Virus record (IMG/VR): IMGVR_UViG_3300010220_000006
Coordinates: 1 to 26,444 of that record
DNA length: 26,444 nt
Source: a virus
Taxonomy: Duplodnaviria > Caudoviricetes
Direction: 5' to 3' (one strand)
Shown here: positions 4 through 16,799 of the stretch, one piece after another
Layout: every line of letters begins with the position of its first letter
Position numbering within the stretch: position 1 is the stretch's first letter
Program-made: the position numbers and the translations under genes
The notes under the pieces: generated by a model
What the model was told of the DNA's origin: nothing
The model's database searches: none
The model's input: the letters and a program-made list of their open reading frames with translations, nothing else

Positions 4-59
4 TTCTAACTTGTCGTTCAAGCCGACGCCTACGGCGCGGCTTAATTCAGGTGTTGGGC
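4..59 (+). repeat. attC site 1
   Basis: TTCTAAC-TTGTC-GTTCAAGC-CGACGCC-TAC-GGCGCG-GCTTAAT-TCAGGT-GTTGGGC. Extra C and A on the top strand correspond to the canonical extrahelical G and T on the bottom strand. Resembles the aadA-type attC as I recall it. Confidence 0.92.
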
Positions 60-343
60 CGCAGGGATGGGCAATCATGGTTATCGCACGCCCGGAGATA
101 ATGGTCGCGGCACGCCGAGCGATCGCAGTCCGGCATGTCGTTCGCCATCCGCGTGTTTTCCAGCCGATCAAGCACGCCAAAATAATTCCGGTTCCTCAAC
201 TCAGCTTCTCCGTAGCGCTCCAGCAGTTCCCAATCGCCGTCGGTTGCGAGCGGCTTGTAAATCCCGGCTGGTATTCGCCGCGCCAATGCGCCGCCTTGCT
301 GTGCGCGCTTGATTTCATCCCATGTGTATCCAAAGATAGTCAT
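47..343 (-). CDS. Hypothetical protein (cassette 1), 98 aa, Cys/His-rich C-terminus
   Basis: ORF track 47..382 starts at a TTG inside attC2. ATG at 343 has a GGAGA Shine-Dalgarno 7 nt upstream and is preferred. Stop TGA lies inside attC1. Confidence 0.7.
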   Translation of the reverse strand: MTIFGYTWDEIKRAQQGGALARRIPAGIYKPLATDGDWELLERYGEAELRNRNYFGVLDRLENTRMANDMPDCDRSACRDHYLRACDNHDCPSLRPNT

Positions 344-364
344 CTGCAAATCTCCGGGCCAGCG

Positions 365-422
365 GCCCAACAATTCATTCAAGCCGACGCCGTTCCGGCG
401 CGGCTTAATTCAGGCGTTGGCC
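365..422 (+). repeat. attC site 2
   Basis: GCCCAAC-AATTC-ATTCAAGC-CGACGCCG-TTC-CGGCGCG-GCTTAAT-TCAGGC-GTTGGCC; textbook R''/L''/L'/R' boxes with both extrahelical bases. Confidence 0.95.
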
Positions 423-1219
423 GTCTCAAACAGCCCTTGCGCAGGGCATCGCGGGGAAAGCCAAAGGCACTCCACGCGGTCCCGCGCTCCATCGGCGTGA
501 GCGTGACGTTCCACGCACCGCCAGTCCTTGTAGAGCGCGTCGTACAGCGCGCTCCGGTAGCCGCTCAACACCACCGGCCCGCGCAGCTTGTGCAACGTCT
601 CGGCCAGCGCCTCATGGTCGGCGTCCGTCATTTCGTGGCGGTAGTCGCCGCCCTTGTCCCTCGTGGCCGCAACGTAGGGCGGGTCAACGTAGTGCACCGT
701 TTCTTCCCCGTCGTGCGCCGACATCACGGCCGCAGCTTCCCGGTTCTCGATCACTACACCCCGCAGGCGCTCTATCACGTCGCCAAACGCACCGGGGTAG
801 TTCCTCCAGTCGTGCGCGGGCGACGTGCCGCTGCGGTTGCTGTTCGCCCGAAAGCCGGTAGCCTTGTTGTGGGCGTTCGAGCCAAATCCCATAAAGGCCC
901 GTGCAACGGTGCGCCGCGCCTGCTCCAGCGGATCCGTGGTTTCGTGGTAGCTATCGAAAAACTCGTCCCGCGCAAACGGTGTCAGTTCCAGCGCCCTCCG
1001 CAGCTCGTCGCCGCGATCCCGCGCCACGCGAAACAGATTCACCACCTCACCGTCAAGGTCGTTGTACACCTCGCAGTAGCTGCGGGGTTTCTTCAACAGC
1101 ACGCTTGCCGCGCCGCCGAACGGCTCGACATAAACGCGGTGCCGGGGAAGGTGCGAAATAATCCAGTCCGCCAGCTTCCACTTGCCGCCGTGCCATCTGA
1201 GTATCGGTCGTTTGCACAT
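410..1219 (-). CDS. dam: DNA adenine methyltransferase, Dam/D12 family (cassette 2)
   Basis: LRWHGGKWKLA N-terminus, SAM-binding YVEPFGGAASV, EVYNDLD, catalytic YVDPPY. Stop inside attC2. Target sequence cannot be read from the protein. Confidence 0.92.
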   Translation of the reverse strand: MCKRPILRWHGGKWKLADWIISHLPRHRVYVEPFGGAASVLLKKPRSYCEVYNDLDGEVVNLFRVARDRGDELRRALELTPFARDEFFDSYHETTDPLEQARRTVARAFMGFGSNAHNKATGFRANSNRSGTSPAHDWRNYPGAFGDVIERLRGVVIENREAAAVMSAHDGEETVHYVDPPYVAATRDKGGDYRHEMTDADHEALAETLHKLRGPVVLSGYRSALYDALYKDWRCVERHAHADGARDRVECLWLSPRCPAQGLFETANA

Positions 1220-1232
1220 AGTCTCAGTCGCC

Positions 1233-1295
1233 GGCCAACCCGGCGCTCAAGCGGGACCGTCCGCAAGCGGCCGGCCCCTTAGCTCTGCGTTAGAG
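1233..1295 (+). repeat. attC site 3
   Basis: GGCCAAC-CCGGC-GCTCAAG-CGGGACCGTCCGC-AA-GCGGCCGGCCC-CTTAGC-TCTGC-GTTAGAG. Confidence 0.92.
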
Positions 1296-1966
1296 GGCTT
1301 CTTACCGCCACGCTCCAGCACCAGAAAATAGCTGTGGAAAATCCGCGCATGTTTCTGTGTACCTGCTCTGTTCGGTGAAGGTAGCCTGTGCTTTGCTGGC
1401 AGCACAAACAAATCCATCAGCCTGAATCCTTCAATCTCTGCCCAAAAAATCACATTGGCATGTGTGCAGTGCATCTTGTGGTTGTGGATAATGTCTTGGC
1501 ACTTGAACACCATCACCCCGCCCGGCTTCAAAACCCGATAGGCTTCGCTTATCGTGTGGCGGTAGTGTTCTTCCAGTTCATCGTAGCGCCAATATCCGGC
1601 AAACCGCTTCGCCATAATCATCGAGCCATTGCCCTCGCGTCCAGCGCGAACGTAGGTCAAAAACGGCGGGTCAAAAACCACGCTTCCTAGTGTCTGTGAC
1701 GCAAGCGGAAGCATGGTGCTGCAAGCCTGCTCCACCCCATCGAGTTGCGGGTCAATATCAAACTTGTGCTTTGGCTGCGGCAGGTTATGCCAAAACTTCC
1801 CGTTGCCATAGGTCATGTCGCAGTCAAACCCGTCAGGGCAGTGCAGCTTCATAATTCCGCGCAAAATCTCGTCCTGCTCAAAATACACAGAGCGCACCAC
1901 TTCGGCTTTCTCTTTTGTGGCGCTGGCTTCCGCTGGCTCCGTCACTGCTAAACACTGGTAGTCCAT
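1247..1966 (-). CDS. Putative amino (N6A/N4C) DNA methyltransferase, phage type (cassette 3)
   Basis: Motif I-like DMTYGNGKFW, catalytic-like VVFDPPF, EAYRVLKPGGVMVFKCQD; SD AAGGA upstream. The C-terminal 14 aa are translated from attC3. Confidence 0.8.
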   Translation of the reverse strand: MDYQCLAVTEPAEASATKEKAEVVRSVYFEQDEILRGIMKLHCPDGFDCDMTYGNGKFWHNLPQPKHKFDIDPQLDGVEQACSTMLPLASQTLGSVVFDPPFLTYVRAGREGNGSMIMAKRFAGYWRYDELEEHYRHTISEAYRVLKPGGVMVFKCQDIIHNHKMHCTHANVIFWAEIEGFRLMDLFVLPAKHRLPSPNRAGTQKHARIFHSYFLVLERGGKKPSNAELRGRPLADGPA

Positions 1967-1987
1967 AGTTTTCCTTTAGTTCCCGCC

Positions 1988-2051
1988 CTCTAACATTGCG
2001 TTCAAGGCCCGACCGCGCTAAAGCGCGTCGGCCTTAACTTCACCGTTGGCA
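1988..2051 (+). repeat. attC site 4
   Basis: CTCTAAC-ATTGC-GTTCAAG-GCCCGACCGCGCT-AA-AGCGCGTCGGC-CTTAAC-TTCACC-GTTGGCA. Confidence 0.9.
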
Positions 2052-2782
2052 GGCAAAAGCATGTCGCCCTGCACCGCCGTATCGCCAGCGCCGACTTTTG
2101 CGTCCTCGAACAGCCTGCCCTGCCGCTGCGCGTCCTCTATGCGGCGGCGGGCGATGTCGAAATACTTGGGTTCGCGCTCGATGCCGATGAACTCGCGGCC
2201 AAGGTTCGCGCAGGCCACGCCGGTAGTGCCGCTGCCCATGAAGGGGTCGAGGACCGCACCACCTGATCTCACGCTGGCGAGAACTTGGCGCTCCATCAGC
2301 CAAACCGGCTTTGGCGTCGGGTGATCTTCTTTCTCTGCTGTCGGCCCTCGCCACACTGGCGACTTGCAGAACTCGGCGAAATGGGCGCCCGCCCGCTTCC
2401 CGTACACGCAAGCCTCAATGGCCGACAGCCAAATATGCTGGCCGTTCATTGGGCTGGGGTTGGACTTCTCCCAAATGCACAGCCGGGTCGAATATCCTGC
2501 TGCGACCATTCCGGCGCGAAGTTGGCTAACCTGCTCGATGCCGCACCAGACATAGACGGACTCACCAAGCAGCAGAACCTTCAAGACTTCGGACAACTCG
2601 CAGGTTTCAATGTCGGCCGCCCCCTTATCGAGATTCCGAAGGCCGCCCGATGCTCGATTTACTTCGCCGTAGGGAATGTCCGTAATCACCGCGTCCACCT
2701 TCGGCAGCGTCGGCAGTATCTCGCGGCAGTCGCCCAGGTAAAGCGTGCAATTCCCGATTGTCACTTTCTCAGCCATCATCAC
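2018..2782 (-). CDS. N6A/N4C DNA methyltransferase, beta class (cassette 4)
   Basis: LYLGDC, DAVITDIPY (DPPY variant), HPTPKPV, VLDPFMGSGTTG, FIGIERE. True start may be ATG 2776 or 2779 (GGAG upstream). Stop TAG inside attC4. Confidence 0.9.
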   Translation of the reverse strand: MMMAEKVTIGNCTLYLGDCREILPTLPKVDAVITDIPYGEVNRASGGLRNLDKGAADIETCELSEVLKVLLLGESVYVWCGIEQVSQLRAGMVAAGYSTRLCIWEKSNPSPMNGQHIWLSAIEACVYGKRAGAHFAEFCKSPVWRGPTAEKEDHPTPKPVWLMERQVLASVRSGGAVLDPFMGSGTTGVACANLGREFIGIEREPKYFDIARRRIEDAQRQGRLFEDAKVGAGDTAVQGDMLLPANGEVKADAL

Positions 2783-2801
2783 TCCGTAGTTACGTTTTGC
2801 C

Positions 2802-2864
2802 TGCCAACACGTCGGTCAAGCGGACGGCGGAAAAGCACCGCCGCCGCTTACCTTGGCGTTAGTC
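2802..2864 (+). repeat. attC site 5
   Basis: TGCCAAC-ACGTC-GGTCAAG-CGGACGGCGG-AAAAGCA-CCGCCGCCG-CTTACC-TTGGC-GTTAGTC. Confidence 0.92.
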
Positions 2865-3026
2865 GTCATCCAGTTCATCGTTTTCCAGCAGCGCCATCCG
2901 CTCGTCAACAATGTCCCGAATCCGATCAACCGCCATCCGCGTCCGTTCATTGTCGATCCCGTAATATCGCAAAAGCTGGCGGCATTCCTCAAACAAGTCC
3001 TGGCACATCTCGCGCTCTGTTGCCAC
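2859..3026 (-). CDS. Small acidic hypothetical protein (cassette 5), about 55 aa
   Basis: ORF track 2859..3044. GTG at 3026 is preceded by GAGGAG (6 nt spacing) located in attC6. Stop TAA overlaps the GTTAG core of attC5. Confidence 0.6.
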   Translation of the reverse strand: MATEREMCQDLFEECRQLLRYYGIDNERTRMAVDRIRDIVDERMALLENDELDDD

Positions 3027-3086
3027 GTCTAACTCCTCATTCAAGCGGGACGCGCTAAAGCGCGCCCCTTAATTCATGCGTTAGGC
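3027..3086 (+). repeat. attC site 6
   Basis: GTCTAAC-TCCTC-ATTCAAG-CGGGACGCGCT-AA-AGCGCGCCC-CTTAAT-TCATGC-GTTAGGC. Confidence 0.94.
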
Positions 3087-3346
3087 CACACGGGGCGACC
3101 GCCGCGCACTTCACCGGCCCACTGATCTGGCGTCGTGATGTCGTCTCCGTAGTCGAGGATGTTGGGCTCTGTGTCGCGCTCACCGATCAAGAGCTTCGTG
3201 CGCTCTGCCTCGTAGGCCACTCTGTTCCAGTATTCTCCGCGATCCATCTCACCGGCTTTCCAACCGCCTGCACTTGTTTTTCTTGTAAATAGACCAGTAT
3301 GTTGATCGTAATCAAGTCTTTGTTTTAATTCAGACTGAGTAATCAT
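3074..3346 (-). CDS. Chimeric ORF: HNH homing-endonuclease-like N-terminus fused to an unrelated C-terminus
   Basis: MITQSELKQRLDYDQHTGLFTRK resembles phage HNH endonuclease N-termini, but no HNH motif follows. AT-rich 5' part, GC-rich 3' part; SD AGGAG; stop in attC6. Confidence 0.6.
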   Translation of the reverse strand: MITQSELKQRLDYDQHTGLFTRKTSAGGWKAGEMDRGEYWNRVAYEAERTKLLIGERDTEPNILDYGDDITTPDQWAGEVRGGRPVWPNA

Positions 3347-3358
3347 CTTGTCTCCTTT

Positions 3359-3634
3359 TTACAAATAATCCCAACTATGCGCCTTCGCCCATAACATCGG
3401 CTCGTCATTCAGCCGGTGCCATTTCTCGCCGCGCTCATGCTTGCCGTCAATGTCGTAGTACGCTTCGTCAATCCGTGTGTATACATGCCCCATGATCGGG
3501 TCATACCAGGCTTCGGCCAGCGGGAAAAGTTCTTTCAGCACACGGTATAGCTGGAAGCATCCGCCGTTGCTGAAACGATTCTCTGCGTTGACGATGCCGA
3601 TTCTTACGGCTGCGATTATCTCTATGGGGGTCAT
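3359..3634 (-). CDS. Phage hypothetical protein, 91 aa
   Basis: ATGA overlap with the upstream methylase; NGGC...GHVY...YYDIDG pattern. Confidence 0.75.
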   Translation of the reverse strand: MTPIEIIAAVRIGIVNAENRFSNGGCFQLYRVLKELFPLAEAWYDPIMGHVYTRIDEAYYDIDGKHERGEKWHRLNDEPMLWAKAHSWDYL

Positions 3635-5058
3635 GCCGCTATCCTCTCGGATTGCACCTCACGAACCATCTGGATGCGTTGGCCTATCCAGCGCATAACC
3701 GGAACGGCCATCGAATTACCTAACGCCTTATACATTGCGCTGTCGCTTGCTCCTGGCACTTTAGATAGGTAATCGTCCGGGAATCCTTGAAGTCTGGCGC
3801 ATTCAGTTGGAGTAAGGCGGCGGACCTGCATGCTTTGCATCAAATATGTTTGTTGTTTCATTCCTGGCTCTGCGGCCAGCGCACCAACTACATCCATAGT
3901 CCTCACCTCGTCACGCTGATTTTGCGCAAACGCTACAGCAGGGCTTTTAGACTTATCCAGCGTAGGGCATACCGTGTCAGGATTCATGCTTTGTGTGGTG
4001 CTGGCTTGATGGTGGAAGGCGACTGCATGCTGATCTGTTTTTGTCAGGCAATGCGATACATCGTGCATAGGCTCGACAGCATTGCCGCCGTTCTCTGGTG
4101 ATCGACCAATCCAGTTGCCTGGTATGCCGTAGCTAATCAAGTCAGTCGCGTCTTTGTAGTCGCGTTGTTTCAATGATCCTGCGAGATCGTCATCAACGTA
4201 CTCACCGAAAGCAACCATGCGATTGGTGGTGATACAAAAATCTAACTCGTTGGCGTTTCCTGCTGGCCTTGTTGTTCCGCCACCATTTGCAGCGAGTGTT
4301 CCAGCAACGACAGGAACAGGCACTATCAACTCATCCTTGCTATCTCCGCTTCTGGCTCCATGCCCTTTGCCACCGTTTGCAGCGCCTGCTCTAATTGTTG
4401 GGGCAACTTCTTGCCCCTTTTCTCGGCTCGGCGCAGGATGCCCCTGCAAGCTGTGGCGCTCAAAAAGTACCGGCAGTCTATCAATCCAGTTTCCAAAATC
4501 TGCGAGAGCGAACATACGTCTGCGTCTTTGTGGAACTCCAAAGTATTGCGCGTCCAAAGTGCGCCATTCGAGAACCCCTGTTTCGCTGGCAGCAACTCCG
4601 CTGTTTTGCCATCCGTTTTTTGGTACAGCAAATTCGGTGTCAAGGATTTCTCCAACCATTGAAGCAAAATCGCGTCCATTGTTTGATGAATAGATGCCTG
4701 GCACATTTTCAAGGAGCAACCATCTTGCATTTGTCCATCTTGCGATTTGCAAGGCTGTGTAAAAAAGTCCAGACCTAGTTGCGCTTCCATCTGCATTTTT
4801 TAACCCTTTTCTTAATCCAGCCACACTCAAATCTTGGCAAGGAAATCCGCCTACAACCAAATCAATATGCCCCAATGATTTAATCTGCTCTTGCGTGATT
4901 TTTGTGATGTCGCCAAGATTTGGAACATCAGGATAGTGGTGTGCCAATACCCTGCAAGGAAACGGATCGATCTCAGCAACGGCAGCGCATTCCCAACCCA
5001 AAGGCAACCACGCAACACTTGCTGCCTCGATTCCACTAAATAAAGATAAGAACTTCAT
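3631..5058 (-). CDS. dcm: DNA (cytosine-5) methyltransferase
   Basis: Motifs I (LSLFSGIE), IV (GGFPCQDLS), VI (ENVPG), VIII (PQRRRR), IX (RRLTPTECARLQGFP), X (YKALGNSMAV); long variable region. Confidence 0.95.
   Translation of the reverse strand: MKFLSLFSGIEAASVAWLPLGWECAAVAEIDPFPCRVLAHHYPDVPNLGDITKITQEQIKSLGHIDLVVGGFPCQDLSVAGLRKGLKNADGSATRSGLFYTALQIARWTNARWLLLENVPGIYSSNNGRDFASMVGEILDTEFAVPKNGWQNSGVAASETGVLEWRTLDAQYFGVPQRRRRMFALADFGNWIDRLPVLFERHSLQGHPAPSREKGQEVAPTIRAGAANGGKGHGARSGDSKDELIVPVPVVAGTLAANGGGTTRPAGNANELDFCITTNRMVAFGEYVDDDLAGSLKQRDYKDATDLISYGIPGNWIGRSPENGGNAVEPMHDVSHCLTKTDQHAVAFHHQASTTQSMNPDTVCPTLDKSKSPAVAFAQNQRDEVRTMDVVGALAAEPGMKQQTYLMQSMQVRRLTPTECARLQGFPDDYLSKVPGASDSAMYKALGNSMAVPVMRWIGQRIQMVREVQSERIAA
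4326..4796 (-). CDS. Overprinted ORF inside dcm, similar to the M.EcoHK31I beta polypeptide
   Basis: 156-aa alternative-frame ORF on the same strand, AAGGG upstream of the ATG. SLKM...WTRNTLE...CSLSQILET...FLS...GILRRAEKRGKKLP resembles the beta subunit as I recall it. Confidence 0.6.
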   Translation of the reverse strand: MQMEAQLGLDFFTQPCKSQDGQMQDGCSLKMCQASIHQTMDAILLQWLEKSLTPNLLYQKTDGKTAELLPAKQGFSNGALWTRNTLEFHKDADVCSLSQILETGLIDCRYFLSATACRGILRRAEKRGKKLPQQLEQALQTVAKGMEPEAEIARMS

Positions 5059-5534
5059 TTGCCAGCCTCGTGTTCAATTCGATGACAATTAGGGCAAATA
5101 ACCTCACCATTAGAAATGGTGTTAAGTCCACCTTTGCATCTAGGTAAAATATGATGAACATCGCACGTTGCTTTATTCCATCCACAACGTGAGCATGAAT
5201 TGCCTTTTGCTTTTCTAACTGCCTCAGCCCATGACTTTCGGTTTTTATAATTTTTATTGTCGGAATGAATTTGATATGTTTTTCCTGAATTCCAAGATGA
5301 TTTTGGCTTTCTTGAAACTTCTGATCTCAAACATCCACAAGATTGAGTTCCTTTTTTATTGCCTGAACGAAAATTATTGCTTTGAACTAGGCATTTATTT
5401 CCGCATTCGCACAAGTACTCCCATAAAACATGTCCATCAGACGACCTTCCAGATTCCTTAACTACAGTGAGGCGACCATATTTAATGCCAGTTCTATTCA
5501 CGGCGTTTCCACGCTTTATGACTTCGTTAATCAT
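5055..5534 (-). CDS. HNH homing endonuclease
   Basis: N-terminal YGRLTV...W.YLCECG...SCGCL module and C-terminal CSRC...DVHHILP...GGLN...N...CPNCH; AT-rich; ATGA overlaps at both ends. Confidence 0.88.
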   Translation of the reverse strand: MINEVIKRGNAVNRTGIKYGRLTVVKESGRSSDGHVLWEYLCECGNKCLVQSNNFRSGNKKGTQSCGCLRSEVSRKPKSSWNSGKTYQIHSDNKNYKNRKSWAEAVRKAKGNSCSRCGWNKATCDVHHILPRCKGGLNTISNGEVICPNCHRIEHEAGK

Positions 5535-5758
5535 GCTTTCACTCTCCATGTCGCCCATTTCTTTCCCGCCTTCATCGCAATCTTTCGCGATCGGGTTCCG
5601 CCCATACTTGCGTTTTGTTTCAGAGGCAGCTTTACACCTTTCTTCTCAAGTTTGTTCAGTGTGTAAGAGCTGATTCCCAAGTCCTTCATCATTTGATTCC
5701 TGCTGTTGTACGGATTCGCCTGCATGTAGGATTCGATTCTCTGGATCAGGTCGTTCAT
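5531..5758 (-). CDS. Small basic HTH-like protein
   Basis: SD GAGGTG; SRNQMMKDLGISSYTLNKL is HTH-like. Confidence 0.65.
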   Translation of the reverse strand: MNDLIQRIESYMQANPYNSRNQMMKDLGISSYTLNKLEKKGVKLPLKQNASMGGTRSRKIAMKAGKKWATWRVKA

Positions 5759-5933
5759 TTTTCACCTCTGCTATCAATTCCAGCATGGCGGCTTCCCCAT
5801 GCTCTGCCTTGTACGCTTTCAGCCATTGCCTTGCTGCCGGTTTGTATGCGGCTCGAAGCCACTTGACCTGGCAGCAGCGGTTGTTCATGTTGAACGTCCA
5901 CTTCAGCCCCTTTGCACAGAATTCGCATGTCAT
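5646..5933 (-). CDS. Hypothetical protein (CxxC...CC)
   Basis: ATGA-coupled to the P-like gene; 3' end overlaps the next gene by 113 nt. Confidence 0.55.
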   Translation of the reverse strand: MTCEFCAKGLKWTFNMNNRCCQVKWLRAAYKPAARQWLKAYKAEHGEAAMLELIAEVKNERPDPENRILHAGESVQQQESNDEGLGNQLLHTEQT

Positions 5934-6418
5934 GCGGCCTCGATGGCTTGTTTTGCAAACCGAGCAGCAATGTCAGAAACAGTCCTGTCACCGTCCTTGA
6001 CGCGCTGGATAATGGCGTGCGCCCAGTCTTTCATGCCGCGCTCCTGCTTCTTCTGCAACTTCTCGGCCTCGGCTTGCAAACGCTCGTGGTTACGCTCGAT
6101 TTCCTCGGCGGTGAAGTGCCTTGGCAGCGCCTTGGTTATTTCACCTGGTTTCATGGCGGCACAAATCCGCTTGAACTCAGGCAGCGTTGGCGGGAACTGC
6201 AGGTTGTCAGCGCAGTGATTGATTGCCTTGCCAATCTCCATCAGCGAGAACTTCGCAAGTCCTGCAGCCCATTCGTCCTTGACCGAATCCATCGGAATAT
6301 CCGCCCACATATCCAGCCAGTGCTTGCCGTACAGACTAGCCATTCGAAGAAAGAGCCGGTCTATCGCCTGTGGCGGAATCACTTGATACGTCGATGATTC
6401 TTGGCTTGTGGTTTCCAT
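5930..6418 (-). CDS. Replication protein P-like (helicase loader)
   Basis: Directly downstream of the initiator; LFLRMASLYG..W and FPPTLPEF motifs typical of lambda P-like proteins. Confidence 0.7.
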   Translation of the reverse strand: METTSQESSTYQVIPPQAIDRLFLRMASLYGKHWLDMWADIPMDSVKDEWAAGLAKFSLMEIGKAINHCADNLQFPPTLPEFKRICAAMKPGEITKALPRHFTAEEIERNHERLQAEAEKLQKKQERGMKDWAHAIIQRVKDGDRTVSDIAARFAKQAIEAA

Positions 6419-7286
6419 CGGTTAAATCTCCAAACATGGCTTTTGCGGTTGCGGTTCGTTTGTCGTGTACGGTTTGATTTTTTGGCGGCGCCGTCTTGTT
6501 CTCGTATCTGCCCTCGATGATCTTCACGAAGTTTTCAGACTTCGTAATCCACTCAAGGTCTGCCTGAAAGCTTGAAGTCTTGCCAGTAAGGAAATCTGAT
6601 TGCGCAACGTAAGCAAAAAGCCTTTCCCAATACTCAAGGTTTTGTCGTTTTGGATCTTCTCTCCAGCGTGATCGAAGTTGATTCGCCCTTTTCTCCGTCC
6701 AAGACTTAACCCTAGTCAGCATAGGCAAATGCTTGTGATAGAGATTGATGATTTGTTGATGAGGGCAAGCGTCACCGACTTGTTCGGGGACAATAGGTTT
6801 TTTACTGTTACTGTTACTGTTACTGTTACTGTTACTGTTACTGGTTAAGGAAGGGTTGTCTAACGGTTCGCCAACTGTTCCAGTTTTCGTGTAATCTAAT
6901 CCTAAAAAGTAAGCGTTGAGCCGCATGTACTCTTGTTTCCAGCTACATTCATCTGGTATTGACTCAGCGATTCTCTTGGCGCTTTTGAGTTGATTTGGGT
7001 TCTCAGGCTTGTTCCAATTGAAGTACTTGCAAATCCATACCCATTTGGTGGTTTCGCAACGTTTAGCGAAGCCCTTATCTAACAGTTCTTTAAGGGTTGA
7101 TTTAACCCTTTCTAAAGCCCATTGAAGGTCGTCGCAAACATAACCATCTGGCAGTCTAAAAACGCCTGATATAGTTCCGTGAGGGCACGTTAGTAAATAC
7201 ATAGCCATTGCCCTGGCATCCTCGCTCATGGTGCGAGTTGTTTGGCTTGTCCAGAATGATGTATAGACTTTCCCGTAATCACGCAT
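6336..7286 (-). CDS. Phage replication initiator (O-like)
   Basis: MRDYGKV..SFW N-terminus, low-complexity linker, C-terminal ADLEWI...NFVKIIEGRY; canonical position after cro/cII. Confidence 0.85.
   Translation of the reverse strand: MRDYGKVYTSFWTSQTTRTMSEDARAMAMYLLTCPHGTISGVFRLPDGYVCDDLQWALERVKSTLKELLDKGFAKRCETTKWVWICKYFNWNKPENPNQLKSAKRIAESIPDECSWKQEYMRLNAYFLGLDYTKTGTVGEPLDNPSLTSNSNSNSNSNSNSKKPIVPEQVGDACPHQQIINLYHKHLPMLTRVKSWTEKRANQLRSRWREDPKRQNLEYWERLFAYVAQSDFLTGKTSSFQADLEWITKSENFVKIIEGRYENKTAPPKNQTVHDKRTATAKAMFGDLTDGNHKPRIIDVSSDSATGDRPALSSNG
6802..6843. repeat. (TTACTG)x7 perfect tandem repeat in the initiator linker
   Basis: 42 bp read directly from the sequence; encodes an SN dipeptide run. 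Confidence 0.95.
6851..7110. promoter_or_regulatory. Putative replication origin iterons
   Basis: Heptamers at 11-12 bp period: AAGGGTT 6851, AACGGTT 6862, AACTGTT 6873; second cluster AACGTTT 7058, AGCCCTT 7070, AACAGTT 7081, AAGGGTT 7092, AACCCTT 7104. Confidence 0.5.
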
Positions 7287-7288
7287 GT

Positions 7289-7408
7289 TTATTCCAAACT
7301 TTCTCTCAGGTAGGAGTTGTGTATCTGGCTTGCAATTACATCTAAATCAAATCCTTTTTTCTGCCAGCGCGGATCTTTTAGTTTTTCTGAATATGTTTTA
7401 TTAGCCAT
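7289..7408 (-). pseudogene. 39-aa ORF, probable internally deleted HNH endonuclease
   Basis: MANKTYSEKLKDPRWQKKGFDLDVIASQIHNSYLRESLE with SD AAAGG; YSEKLKDPRWQKK is a typical HNH-protein leader. Not in the ORF track. Confidence 0.55.
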
Positions 7409-7421
7409 CACAAGCCTTTCA

Positions 7422-7736
7422 TCACGCCGCCACCTTCTGCTCTCTGAACTCAAACAGGTTGGAGTAACGTGGATGCCGAAGTGCGAACAGCCTTGCTAGA
7501 TATGGCACAAAGTTCCCGTTGATCTTGTATTCACCCTTCAACTCACCAATAGCGGTGTCGTGACGGATGACCTCAACGATCGTCCTGGCCGAGTAGTGCT
7601 CACGCTTCGATGCGACCTTTAATGCTCGACGCTCGAACTCTTCCCAGATGTGGAAGTTCTCCATCAGCCATTCAGGGAAGTCGTCACGGAACATGTCTTT
7701 GTTGGAAAGAATTGTGTTGAGGATAATGAGCTTCAT
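7422..7736 (-). CDS. Phage hypothetical protein
   Basis: 104 aa, strong SD AAGGAGG, in operon order. Confidence 0.8.
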   Translation of the reverse strand: MKLIILNTILSNKDMFRDDFPEWLMENFHIWEEFERRALKVASKREHYSARTIVEVIRHDTAIGELKGEYKINGNFVPYLARLFALRHPRYSNLFEFREQKVAA

Positions 7737-7766
7737 ACGCCCTCCTTGAATCGACCTTTTCTAGCC

Positions 7767-8003
7767 CTATTCCTGCACTTCAGGTCTAGCACCGGTTGCC
7801 TTCATCCTTAAGACGTGAAATTGCCCATAAAGGTGAGCTGTGATGACATCTCTTAGATACTCGGATGATGACTGCCCGGAAAGCTGCGCAAGTGCGACAA
7901 ACTTCTCTTTCACATCCTCTGGCACCACTGTCTTAAGTTCCTCGGTGCATTTGCCCAGAGGATGCGATGTGCCAGACCGTGAGAAAACTGAATCTGTACC
8001 CAT
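7767..8003 (-). CDS. Ribbon-helix-helix-like regulator in the cII position
   Basis: ELKTVVPEDVKEKFVALAQLSGQSSSEYLRDVI fits an RHH pattern; SD GGAG. Confidence 0.7.
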   Translation of the reverse strand: MGTDSVFSRSGTSHPLGKCTEELKTVVPEDVKEKFVALAQLSGQSSSEYLRDVITAHLYGQFHVLRMKATGARPEVQE

Positions 8004-8122
8004 AAAGTTTCTCCAATTAGAGTTATTTGACGACTTCCCTTTTTAATGAACCCGATGGCAGATCCATTAAAAAGCGCCCTGCTAACAAGGCGAAATGCAC
8101 CAATTAGGGGGCAATTGGTGTC

Positions 8123-8353
8123 CTATGCGGCGTTGCTTAATTCAGGCCAGATATCCATCCAATCATCTGGCCTAAGTTCCTTCCGGGTGACAGCGCCGTC
8201 AGTGATCTTCTCGATGGCCACGCACTGCATGATCGGCACAGGCCGGATTCCTGATATCCATTGGTTGACGGCAGGCGTAGTGACTTTGAGCGATCGTGCG
8301 AGCGCTGCCTGCCCACCCATAAGGGCGCATGCTTTTTCAATTGCAAAACTCAT
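8123..8353 (-). CDS. cro: Cro-like repressor (YdaS family HTH)
   Basis: GGQAALARSLKVTTPAVNQW...IEKITDGAVTRKELRPD; divergent from cI; ATG 8353 follows the PR -10 box. Confidence 0.9.
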   Translation of the reverse strand: MSFAIEKACALMGGQAALARSLKVTTPAVNQWISGIRPVPIMQCVAIEKITDGAVTRKELRPDDWMDIWPELSNAA

Positions 8354-8360
8354 GCTGGTA

Positions 8361-8389
8361 AATTTAGCACGGCTAAAGGAACGAATCAA
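8361..8389 (-). promoter_or_regulatory. PR promoter
   Basis: TTGATT (8389-8384) - 17 bp - TAAATT (8366-8361); cro ATG 7 nt further on. Confidence 0.75.
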
Positions 8390-8425
8390 GCCATGCTAAA
8401 TAATTTTGCTATTAGCATCGCTTTA
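8363..8425. promoter_or_regulatory. OR operators (three 15-bp sites)
   Basis: TTTAGCacgGCTAAA 8363-8377, TCAAGCcatGCTAAA 8386-8400, ATTAGCatcGCTTTA 8411-8425; the same motif recurs at OL. Confidence 0.85.
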
Positions 8426-9150
8426 TGAAGAGTGACGACAGTAAAAGACTAGAGGATCTGTTCCGACGGGTGCGGATGACTAAGGCGGAATTCGCTCGCA
8501 CATATAAGATTCCGGGCGGCGCTTCTATGGTTAGTCAGCATCTGAGTGGCAATAGACCGATCAGTATGGACGCTGCGATTGCTTATGCACGCGGCTTCGG
8601 GTGCAGTATTGCTGATATAAGTCCAAGGTTAGCGGCTGAAGCAAAGGCGCTAGCCCAAATGGTGAACGACGACCTGATCACCAATCCAACCGCTTCGCAT
8701 GAGCACGAGGAAGACGACAGCGACAGCATCTCTATCGACCTTATGAATGCATATGGATCGATGGGTGGCGGCGTGGATATTGAATCTGAAGACTTGGCAA
8801 TCGAGAGATTAAGGATAAACAGAGCATGGGCTGCGGAGAACCTGAAGCCTATAACCTCACTCAATAATCTGTATTTCATTCACGCTCTTGGCGACTCAAT
8901 GACGCCAACTCTTGATCACGGCGACATCGTCCTGGTTGACGTCGGCATTAAGAATGCTATGGTTGATGGCATCTATGTATTACGCGCATGCCAGCGCCTA
9001 TTCATTAAGCGGGTTCGCACTCGTCTAGACGGTGCGCATGAGATCAGTAGTGACAACCCGAACGTGAAGACGGTTGATATCTTAAACGGTGACTATGATG
9101 TCGAGATCGTGGGGAAGGTGGTGTGGGTATGGAATGGAAAGAAGGTCTAA
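8425..9150 (+). CDS. cI: CI repressor (HTH + S24 autopeptidase)
   Basis: N-terminal HTH; GSMGGG cleavage-site region, GDSMTPTL (Ser), LFIKR (Lys), IVGKVVW. Confidence 0.93.
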   Translation: MKSDDSKRLEDLFRRVRMTKAEFARTYKIPGGASMVSQHLSGNRPISMDAAIAYARGFGCSIADISPRLAAEAKALAQMVNDDLITNPTASHEHEEDDSDSISIDLMNAYGSMGGGVDIESEDLAIERLRINRAWAAENLKPITSLNNLYFIHALGDSMTPTLDHGDIVLVDVGIKNAMVDGIYVLRACQRLFIKRVRTRLDGAHEISSDNPNVKTVDILNGDYDVEIVGKVVWVWNGKKV

Positions 9151-10240: not shown

Positions 10241-10253
10241 ATTGCTAAATAAA

Positions 10254-10295
10254 TTTAGCAATGCTATTGACATATAAATTTAGCCCTGCTAAAGT
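10254..10295 (+). promoter_or_regulatory. PL promoter with OL operators
   Basis: TTGACA (10267-10272) - 17 bp - TAAAGT (10290-10295); operators TTTAGCaatGCTATT 10254-10268 and TTTAGCcctGCTAAA 10279-10293. Confidence 0.88.
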
Positions 10296-15827: not shown

Positions 15828-16799
15828 ATGGTGGCATCTATCCAGAAGCATGGTGATGGATGGCGTGCGCTCGTTCGTAGAAAGGGTATCACTAAAACAA
15901 GAAAATTCCCAACGAAAGCGCAGGCTGTGGCATGGGCGGCAAAGGAAGAGACCGAGATCCTTGAATCAATGTCTGGGTCTATACCGAAAAAGACGTTCGG
16001 TGAGTTACTTGACCGATACGCAGATACCGTCTCGGTGAAGAAAGCCGGGGAGCGGTGGGAGCGCGTTCGCATCAATTTAATCAAACAGGATAAGATCGCC
16101 AACGTCATGCTGGCTGATCTTAACCAATCAGACTTTGCCGCATGGCGCGACCGGCGATTGAAAGAAGTTAGCGCAGCGAGCGTAAGACGCGAATGGAACC
16201 TTCTGTCTAACGCATGCACGATTGCGCTATATGAGTGGAAATGGCTGCGCGAGCATCCAATGAAAGGCGTGTCCAAGCCTGCGCCTCCGCCGCCGCGTGA
16301 CAGGTTGGTGAGCCAGGAAGAGATCGAAGCGATACAGTTCGCACTTGGCTATGTTGGCGGTCAGGCAGAAACCAAAAGTCATCGCGTTGCGCTCGCGTTT
16401 GAGTTTGCATGCGAAACAGCGATGCGCGCTCAGGAGATATGCAATCTTCGACTTGATGACATCAATGGTCAGACAGCTACCATACGCAAGTCAAAAACTC
16501 GCGCTGGCGTCCGCGTCGCTCCGTTGACGCAGCGAGCCGTCGAGATATTGAAATTGCTGCCAGATGAAAACCTGTTCGACCTGACAACGGCGTCGCTTGA
16601 AGCGATGTTCAGGAAGGCCAAAGCAAAAGCCATGATCGATGACTTGCATTTCCACGATTCACGGCACGAAGGGATAACCAGACTGTCAAAGAAACTGAAC
16701 GTGCTAGAGTTGGCAAGAGCGGTCGGTCATCAGGATCTGAGGCAATTGCTCATCTACTACAACGAGAGCGCTGAGGATATAGCCAAGAAGTTGCGTTGA
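15828..16799 (+). CDS. int: Phage integrase (tyrosine recombinase)
   Basis: Catalytic R (AMRAQE), K (KSKT), HxxR (FHDSRH), H (VGH), Y (IYYN); no IntI-specific insertion evident. Confidence 0.95.
   Translation: MVASIQKHGDGWRALVRRKGITKTRKFPTKAQAVAWAAKEETEILESMSGSIPKKTFGELLDRYADTVSVKKAGERWERVRINLIKQDKIANVMLADLNQSDFAAWRDRRLKEVSAASVRREWNLLSNACTIALYEWKWLREHPMKGVSKPAPPPPRDRLVSQEEIEAIQFALGYVGGQAETKSHRVALAFEFACETAMRAQEICNLRLDDINGQTATIRKSKTRAGVRVAPLTQRAVEILKLLPDENLFDLTTASLEAMFRKAKAKAMIDDLHFHDSRHEGITRLSKKLNVLELARAVGHQDLRQLLIYYNESAEDIAKKLR

What the first reader, a model, noticed from the sequence alone, without database searches (positions are those of the whole stretch)
47..3346. All cassette genes are inverted relative to attC and borrow stop codons and an RBS from the attC bottom strand
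Seen: the extrahelical-base asymmetry fixes + as the attC top strand, yet all six genes are on -, co-directional with PR. Five run into the attC with the core AAC in frame as Asn (PNT*, ANA*, SNAELRGRPLADGPA*, ANGEVKADAL*, PNA*), so their stops lie beyond the crossover, in the neighbour's attC. attC6 also provides GAGGAG for the cassette-5 gene. Established: ordinary cassettes are mostly sense to attC and expressed from Pc. Inference: this is a phage-adapted cassette class expressed from PR, silent if captured in a host integron under Pc, with C-terminal tails that change on reshuffling.
Basis: partly seen in the sequence, partly recalled or inferred. Interest (0 to 1): 0.85.

Follow-up and report, generated by a model that had tools for sequence, protein, structure and literature searches.

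The report
Backwards integron cassettes in a phage
This phage carries a row of swappable integron-type gene cassettes whose genes face the opposite way from those in bacterial integrons, so they are likely read by the phage's own transcription, and the same gene ends in a different protein tail depending on which cassette sits next to it.

Summary
Confirmed, with two corrections. Six attC sites lie at 4-3086, all with + as top strand; all six genes are on the minus strand. Five cross the G/TT point with AAC as Asn and stop in the neighbouring attC. Breakpoints among relatives fall in that GTT. One methyltransferase cassette shows 14 different tails in 20 copies. The layout is general: with one attC motif, 123 of 143 assignable viral sites are inverted, against 15 of 216 in bacterial genomes. 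Three related viral contigs carry a real IntI downstream, and some arrays end in an attI-like site. Corrections: gene 6 is an HNH fusion with half a cassette gene and has no attC of its own; the GAGGAG lies in gene 5's own attC and is atypical. Sense-oriented phage cassettes also exist (TJE1). Expression from PR, silence under Pc and IntI catalysis here are inferred; this truncated contig has no intI. Phage attC arrays are published (Qi 2023); nine paper searches found no description of the inverted class. This scan has reported it before on other phages.

The parts
4..59 (+). attC1 (top strand +; crossover G53/T54); its own cassette is cut off by the contig end; supplies the TGA (47-49) of gene 1
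47..343 (-). gene 1, 98 aa, no Pfam or PHROG family, ends PNT*; cassette 54-416
   Evidence: homologs L001, L002
365..422 (+). attC2 (crossover G416), own site of gene 1, close to class 1 integron attC sites; supplies the TGA (410-412) of gene 2
410..1219 (-). gene 2, Dam-like D12 adenine methyltransferase, 269 aa, ends ANA*; cassette 417-1289
   Evidence: PF02086, phrog_56; tails of homologs; contig piece 414-1264
1233..1295 (+). attC3 (crossover G1289), own site of gene 2; encodes the 13-codon tail and TGA of gene 3
   Evidence: same tail on another protein in L147
1247..1966 (-). gene 3, N6/N4 DNA methyltransferase, 239 aa; cassette 1290-2045
   Evidence: PF01555, phrog_24333; L003 homology ends at 1289
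1988..2051 (+). attC4 (crossover G2045), own site of gene 3; encodes the 8-codon tail and TAG of gene 4
2018..2776 (-). gene 4, N6/N4 DNA methyltransferase, about 252 aa (start 2776 or 2779); cassette 2046-2858
   Evidence: PF01555, phrog_67; homolog alignments end at 2044/2045 and run through attC5; 14 tails in 20 rows
2802..2864 (+). attC5 (crossover G2858), own site of gene 4; TAA of gene 5 lies at 2859-2861 on gene 5's own side
2859..3026 (-). gene 5, 55 aa, no family, GTG start; cassette 2859-3080
   Evidence: 7 of 11 homologs are 55 aa and start at the same residue
3027..3086 (+). attC6 (crossover G3080), own site of gene 5; bottom strand holds GAGGAG 6 nt before gene 5's GTG and the TGA (3074-3076) of gene 6
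3074..3346 (-). gene 6, chimera: HNH endonuclease N-terminus fused to the 3' half of an inverted-cassette gene; no attC of its own
   Evidence: phrog_99 on residues 1-39; residues 36-86 are 84% identical to L329, whose full form has its own attC
3359..8353 (-). lambdoid early operon upstream of the array: cro, O-like, P-like, HNH, C5 methyltransferase, YunG-like gene, all on minus
8361..8389 (-). candidate PR (hexamers 8389-8384 and 8366-8361, 17-nt spacer, 8 of 12 consensus matches) between cI and cro; read by eye, below the scan's threshold
   Evidence: not listed; operator-like repeats D7
8425..9150 (+). cI-like repressor
   Evidence: phrog_4, PF00717

Best explanation
This is an integron-type cassette array in a phage operon whose genes lie on the attC bottom strand; cassettes exchange at the G/TT of R', likely through an integron integrase supplied by the host or by a missing part of the phage, and are likely read by the phage's leftward early transcript. 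Each cassette is one gene with its own attC in front of the start codon (shown). The crossover lies at or just inside the gene's 3' end, so a gene reaching the core in the AAC frame takes its last residues and stop from whatever attC or attI follows (shown in relatives). The cargo is phage-type, here three DNA methyltransferases, presumably anti-restriction (inferred). Under a host Pc such a gene would be antisense and silent (inferred). The bottom strand would be the lagging-strand template for a fork leaving an origin in the O-like gene, which would favour folding and excision (inferred from PMC5371416).
For: Six sites, all top = +; annotated class 1 control. Identity profile: pairs sharing the next gene (36 pairs, 7 clusters) are 0.94-1.00 identical at G+3..+6 and at background (0.50 vs 0.51) at G-5..-1; pairs sharing the own gene (41 pairs, 11 clusters) stay above background inside attC (0.84, 0.72) and drop after GTT (0.36 vs 0.33); no pair shares both flanks. 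Gene 4: 14 tails in 20 rows. The four closest gene 2 homologs have four other tails after ETAN. Orientation, inverted/sense: viral 123/20, genomes 15/201; second motif viral 84/5, metagenome contigs 41/113. 101 of 105 crossing genes use the AAC frame. IntI above the TIGR02249 cut-off downstream of inverted arrays in L096, L373, L450. AAC-N6-TAG at 18 of 120 terminal gene ends against 28 of 2666 control ends; the motif (N6-7) lies upstream of intI in 12 of 25 IntI loci. Contig pieces in public runs start at or near the crossovers: 53, 414, 1286, 2045.
Against: No intI in this contig (42% complete, cut at attC1) and no attI visible. No strand-resolved RNA. PR is not found at the scan threshold, and a terminator-like site follows cro. 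Own attC does not always follow its gene: 3 of 18 pairs had attC identity of 0.67 or less, and two contigs of cassette 3 diverge inside attC4 after 2005. TJE1 has sense cassettes with a methyltransferase 51% identical to an inverted one. The samples were picked by two attC motifs taken from this window, and the pairs are not independent.
Confidence: 0.8

Rival explanations
1. The attC-derived hairpins act as short homology linkers for phage RecT/RecE recombination or replication slippage, and no integron integrase is involved.
For: The window encodes RecT-like and RecE-like proteins and no IntI. Some relatives keep the gene but differ within its own attC (3 of 18 pairs; loose ends after 2005). 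PMC5371416 describes integrase-independent slippage between attC sites.
Against: Breakpoints concentrate in the GTT triplet, not across the hairpin. Cassettes also join non-attC sites exactly at AAC (L002, L003). IntI and attI-like sites accompany related arrays.
Confidence: 0.1
2. The architecture is real but this array is a frozen relic: cassettes entered long ago and are no longer moved in this phage.
For: Gene 6 is a deletion chimera without its attC. attC1 has poor R''/R' pairing and no bottom-strand advantage. No intI in the contig.
Against: Close copies of single cassettes occur elsewhere without this phage's backbone: 11 differences over 414-1264 in run X1. All six AAC/GTT cores and L boxes are intact.
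Confidence: 0.2
3. These are ordinary host cassettes that were captured or inverted as a block, or inserted by top-strand recombination.
For: Top-strand recombination does occur at low rate for aadA7-type sites (PMC5027507). attC2 is close to class 1 sites. Viral array L443 holds one sense cassette.
Against: Either route turns gene and attC together and cannot invert a gene relative to its own attC. 167 viral inverted proteins against 224 genome cassette proteins gave 5 blastp hits, all to inverted calls, none to sense cassettes (low power). Named cargo is phage-type.
Confidence: 0.04
4. The + strand is the coding strand and the minus-strand frames are shadows.
For: A 423-codon open frame runs on + at 11-1282.
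Against: Three minus-strand genes match methyltransferase families, gene 5 and gene 1 have conserved homologs, and minus outscores plus in 6 of 6 segments.
Confidence: 0.01

Closest known systems
[quoted passage not shown] 2023, PMC9892861
   Same: attC arrays without intI in phage genomes, often with DNA methyltransferases; their tested sites recombined with IntI1, bottom strand better than top. One of their phages, MW202573, has four sites with top strand opposite to its annotated genes, so it is of this class.
   Different: The text I read calls the TJE1 and PH101 arrays typical and does not remark on genes antisense to attC, in-frame crossover tails or attI-like ends. TJE1 is indeed sense. 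Figures and the Dryad annotation file were not seen.
Class 1 mobile integron cassettes (attC of aadA7/qacF type, IntI1, attI1, Pc)
   Same: R''-L''-L'-R' anatomy, extrahelical G on the bottom strand, crossover in AAC/GTT of R' (PMC5027507).
   Different: Genes are antisense to the top strand, own attC precedes the start, the crossover falls in the gene's 3' end, cargo is phage genes, and no Pc or intI is seen here.
Sedentary chromosomal integrons of Lysobacteraceae and Betaproteobacteria with the same attC family
   Same: Same attC motif and an AAC-N6-TAG junction upstream of intI; phage IntIs fall among these integrases.
   Different: 201 sense against 15 inverted calls. Single antisense cassettes are known, for example symE with sRNA-Xcc1, not under Pc (10.1101/2025.06.18.660453), but not whole arrays co-directional with intI.
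attG insertion and SALINs (10.1101/2022.09.11.507474)
   Same: IntI acting in trans at GWT sites outside an integron, and loss of attC after insertion; could explain non-attC, non-attI junctions such as L003.
   Different: Single cassettes with no strand or transcription bias reported, so attG insertion alone does not give the polarity seen here.
ORF-11 across attI1 (review PMC8876359)
   Same: A reading frame that crosses a recombination point and takes its stop from the incoming partner.
   Different: A short top-strand leader peptide; here it is the C-terminus of the cargo protein on the bottom strand.

Membership tests
Integron gene cassette / attC site | R'' (..AAC) and R' (GTT..) cores with L''/L' boxes forming a hairpin | tested here: met
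   6 of 6 sites, above shuffled null
Integron gene cassette / attC site | Extrahelical bases and folding bias that mark one strand as bottom strand | tested here: met
   Extra C in L'' on + in 6 of 6; bottom fold more stable in 5 of 6, equal in attC1; class 1 control
Integron gene cassette / attC site | Crossover at G/TT of R'; gene plus own attC move as a unit | tested here: met
   Breakpoint profile, alignment ends, contig pieces; 3 of 18 pairs had a different own attC
Integron gene cassette / attC site | Recombined by IntI as a folded bottom strand | not testable with these tools
   Needs an attC x attI assay; shown for other phage attC sites in PMC9892861
Canonical promoterless cassette under Pc | Gene is sense to the attC top strand, with attC after the gene | tested here: not met
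   All genes on minus, top strand +
Complete integron | intI gene | tested here: not met
   No TIGR02249 match in the contig; the integrase at 15828-16799 is a phage integrase. The contig is 42% complete and cut on the side where intI sits in L096, L373 and L450
Complete integron | attI site heading the array | tested here: inconclusive
   Would lie beyond position 1; attI-like ends in 18 of 120 terminal gene ends of related arrays
Complete integron | Pc promoter driving the top strand | not tested
   Region missing; genes are on the other strand
CALIN (phage) | Two or more clustered attC sites with no intI nearby | tested here: inconclusive
   Six sites and no intI in the contig, but the array runs off the contig end

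The most novel reading that the evidence does not exclude
Phages run a mirror-image integron system: their own pool of cassettes built from phage genes, docked at attI sites inside phage operons, shuffled by host or phage IntI, read from phage promoters, and largely unreadable to the host under Pc. Phage operons would be a place where new cassettes are made, since the same methyltransferase families occur with no detected attC, as inverted cassettes and as sense cassettes, and each reshuffle rewrites protein C-termini.
Probability: 0.45. Interest if true: 0.88.

Novelty: new variant of a known kind. Interest (0 to 1): 0.72.

Why it matters
Integrons are treated as bacterial devices, lately as stores of anti-phage genes. 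A common phage class with reversed polarity would mean phages use the same recombination chemistry to swap counter-defence genes such as methyltransferases, and that polarity keeps two cassette pools apart although they share sites. It also makes the open question of how cassettes arise testable: gene families seen without attC, in inverted cassettes and in sense cassettes can be ordered on a tree. In practice, annotators should treat tails after a terminal Asn in these phage proteins as context, not as conserved domain.

Tried and rejected
Rfam found nothing in the window. The promoter scan gave no minus-strand promoter and no excess over shuffles. Unconstrained folding did not separate the strands well in attC1, 2 and 5, so polarity rests on extrahelical bases, the class 1 control and breakpoints. 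Run search: 20 holders, all with small shares and contigs only, so no habitat or strand claim; the RNA-run contig at 35-398 may be DNA, and the joints 418-2075 and 55-369 have sides of only 23 letters. Uncovered backbone bins are not used as evidence of absence. No attC was detected in the 78 gene 3 homolog loci, but the detector is tuned to this attC family and found none of the published P12002L sites, so these blanks are weak. A scan with L096 IntI returned 13 loci and, besides the query's own contig, no further inverted array. A replication bias at attG insertion as the cause of polarity was rejected: none was reported. The TTG starts at 382 and 3044 were rejected in favour of 343 and 3026. 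No cultured phage in the annotated collection covered 80% of the array; matches were to single genes or short stretches. PH101 was not fetched. No earlier notes exist on this genome. No structure or complex prediction was run, since it would not bear on the claim.
Full report
1. Setting. The window is a whole 26,444-base virus contig, linear and 42% complete. It is a lambdoid arm: cI 8425-9150 (+), then on minus cro, O-like, P-like, HNH, a C5 methyltransferase and a YunG-like gene, then the array down to the contig end. RecT-like, RecE-like, SSB and a phage integrase lie on the other arm. There is no integron integrase.

2. The observation. A structural detector of my own found six attC sites, all with + as top strand, and no others (scores 16.8-20.8; one null hit of 13.4 in 310,288 bases shuffled in 2-base blocks). 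A relaxed version found the same six plus one weak hit of 12.8, with 2 null hits in 597,621 bases. Every L'' has the unpaired C on +, and with R boxes paired the minus strand folds better in 5 of 6 sites. As an outside control, a class 1 integron aligned to the window has qacF and aadB on the window's + strand and intI1 on minus. All six genes are on minus; three are methyltransferases. A 423-codon plus-strand frame exists but scores lower, as does the best plus frame in all 6 segments. Genes 1-4 and 6 cross GTT as Asn and stop 1, 1, 13, 8 and 1 codons later; gene 5 stops at TAA on its own side.

3. Corrections. Gene 6 is a chimera: residues 1-39 match an HNH family, residues 36-86 are 84% identical to the 3' half of a gene that is a full inverted cassette in L329-L331, and no attC follows it. 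So there are five whole cassettes' worth of gene plus own attC (genes 1-5), one remnant, and attC1 whose gene is cut off. The GAGGAG is real and 7 of 11 homologs start at the matching residue, but attC6 is gene 5's own site. Among 167 inverted genes the ribosome-binding core is in the cassette body in 119, overlaps attC in 2, is absent in 17, and 29 genes start inside attC. GAGGAG occurs at that place in 1 of 231 viral sites.

4. Where the crossover is. Among 238 sites from viral loci and the window, 36 pairs share the next gene and 41 share the own gene; none shares both. Next-gene pairs are 0.94-1.00 identical at G+3..+6 and at background at G-5..-1 (0.50 vs 0.51). Own-gene pairs stay high inside attC (0.84 and 0.72 vs 0.54 and 0.51) and fall to background after GTT (0.36 vs 0.33). 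The pairs form only 7 and 11 clusters, so they are not independent counts. Alignments of gene 4 relatives end at 2044/2045 in 14 loci and many run through attC5; the L003 gene 3 relative ends at 1289. Contig pieces from four public runs begin at 53, 414, 1286 and 2045. This is the R' crossover expected for bottom-strand recombination (PMC5027507, passages). Against a clean picture, 3 of 18 own-gene pairs had attC identity of 0.67 or less, and two copies of cassette 3 diverge inside attC4, so attC arms are also exchanged.

5. Tails. The gene 4 family shows 14 different tails after the same PAN/TAN in 20 rows. The four closest gene 2 relatives have four other tails after ETAN. L147 puts the window's attC3 tail on an unrelated protein. 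Pooled over viral loci, 239 inverted genes end toward an attC: 105 cross it (101 in the AAC frame), 82 stop at TAA in their own core, 52 stop earlier. In the AAC frame 18 of 313 sites lack an internal stop, against 75 of 313 in the avoided frame; selection against run-on fusions is my inference.

6. Generality and control. Strict detector, inverted/sense/unassigned: viral 129/21/29, genomes 26/219/87. Relaxed detector with a gene-score filter: 123/20/45 and 15/201/150; gene 4 homolog loci 33/0/5. A second motif gave 84/5/15 in viral contigs and 41/113/92 in metagenome contigs. The clearest inverted calls in genomes (L190, L211) look like prophages by their gene content. 167 viral inverted proteins against 224 genome cassette proteins gave 5 hits, all to inverted calls; power is low because the genome set has 206 clusters. 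I scanned 70 of 126 cluster representatives with PHROGs: the named ones were mostly DNA methyltransferases, with a Mom-like protein, a DHH phosphoesterase and others, and most had no family. Counter-example: TJE1 has sense cassettes, and its methyltransferase is 51% identical to an inverted one. Both motifs came from this window, so the proportions apply to this attC family only.

7. Platform. L096, L373 and L450 carry IntI above the TIGR02249 cut-off, downstream of and co-directional with inverted cassettes; L373 includes a gene 4 relative. L373 and L450 group together (95/94), while L096 groups with a Burkholderiales integrase at lower support. An AAC-N6-7-TAG junction lies upstream of intI in 12 of 25 IntI loci, and the N6 form lies at 18 of 120 terminal gene ends of viral arrays against 28 of 2666 other gene ends (a few of the 18 are repeats of one junction). 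In L002 the gene 1 cassette ends in such a site. I read this as attI, whose TAG is in frame with AAC; the attI label is inferred from position. Most arrays show no intI within the fetched flanks, so supply in trans is likely. In this window that side is missing.

8. Mechanism. Shown: anatomy, polarity, crossover position, mobility as units, variable tails. Inferred: IntI catalysis; reading from PR (all genes from cro to the array are on minus; a weak candidate promoter is visible, but one search lists none and shows a terminator-like site after cro); silence under Pc (follows from PMC5027507); anti-restriction role of the methyltransferases (discussion in PMC9892861); lagging-strand exposure of the bottom strand (PMC5371416, abstract and passages; placing the origin in the O-like gene is recalled from lambda). 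Related arrays sit in other operons, for example L190 and L211, so the rule is reading by the local phage transcript, not PR as such. attG insertion shows no strand bias, so the polarity needs selection or a biased origin; this is unexplained.

9. What is known. Phage attC arrays and their recombination by IntI1 are published (PMC9892861: I read the abstract, introduction, start of methods, part 1 of 3 of results, section 3.4, term passages and part 1 of 2 of the supplement; figures and the Dryad file not seen, and they may show the orientation). One of its phages, MW202573, is inverted by my detector, unremarked in the text I read. For 10.1101/2022.09.11.507474 I read passages and two sections; for PMC5027507, PMC8876359, 10.1101/2025.06.18.660453 and 10.1101/2024.07.02.601686 passages only. 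Nine searches listed no paper describing an inverted phage class; subscription journals are largely missing from that library. Earlier notes of this scan report the same layout, the Asn rule, phage IntI and integrase-less attI on other phages; I saw them after making the orientation, L096 and attI-like observations, except that the tail, frame and breakpoint tests followed.

10. Verdict. It works like an integron cassette array and its sites qualify as attC; it is not a complete integron on the sequence available and not a canonical Pc-type array. New variant of a known kind, interest 0.72.

Noticed in passing
L096:4987-7476 (also L412): Viral contig that looks Mu-like by its early genes (label from recall), with three inverted cassettes, an attI-like junction and an intact IntI, all co-directional in one operon.
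   Followed up: partly
L373:6400-6522 and L450:3621-3711: These two phage integrons share a junction upstream of intI that differs from the AAC-N6-TAG type, and their integrases group together.
   Followed up: partly
L003:5940-6000 and 6690-6735: Gene 3 cassette whose own attC looks degenerate (core ATC in place of AAC, read by eye) and whose 3' end joins a non-attC, non-attI site: a possibly fixed cassette.
   Followed up: partly
L211:6344-8651 (same cassettes as L121): In a Pseudothauera rhizosphaerae prophage-like region two inverted cassettes follow a large gene that looks like a portal and itself ends PNA* in the attC, so arrays may also sit among head genes.
   Followed up: no
L443:2074-2274: One sense-oriented gene inside an otherwise inverted viral array, a possible host-type cassette captured by a phage.
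   Followed up: no
L427:2069-3738 (MW202573): A published phage CALIN has four attC sites with top strand opposite to the annotated genes.
   Followed up: yes
window:16937-26443: Polyvalent protein of over 3100 aa with LPD5, LPD1, ART-PolyVal and LPD38 domains, open at the contig end.
   Followed up: no
window:8128-8147: The end of cro carries a 20-nt match to the L'-spacer part of attC1/2 (repeat D5) and cro ends SNAA; it may be an attC remnant or chance.
   Followed up: no
window:8359-8378 and 10250-10294: Three related 20-nt repeats on either side of cI, operator-like (repeat D7).
   Followed up: no
window:410-5058: Four DNA methyltransferases in 4.6 kb: three in cassettes and one C5 enzyme in the backbone.
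   Followed up: partly
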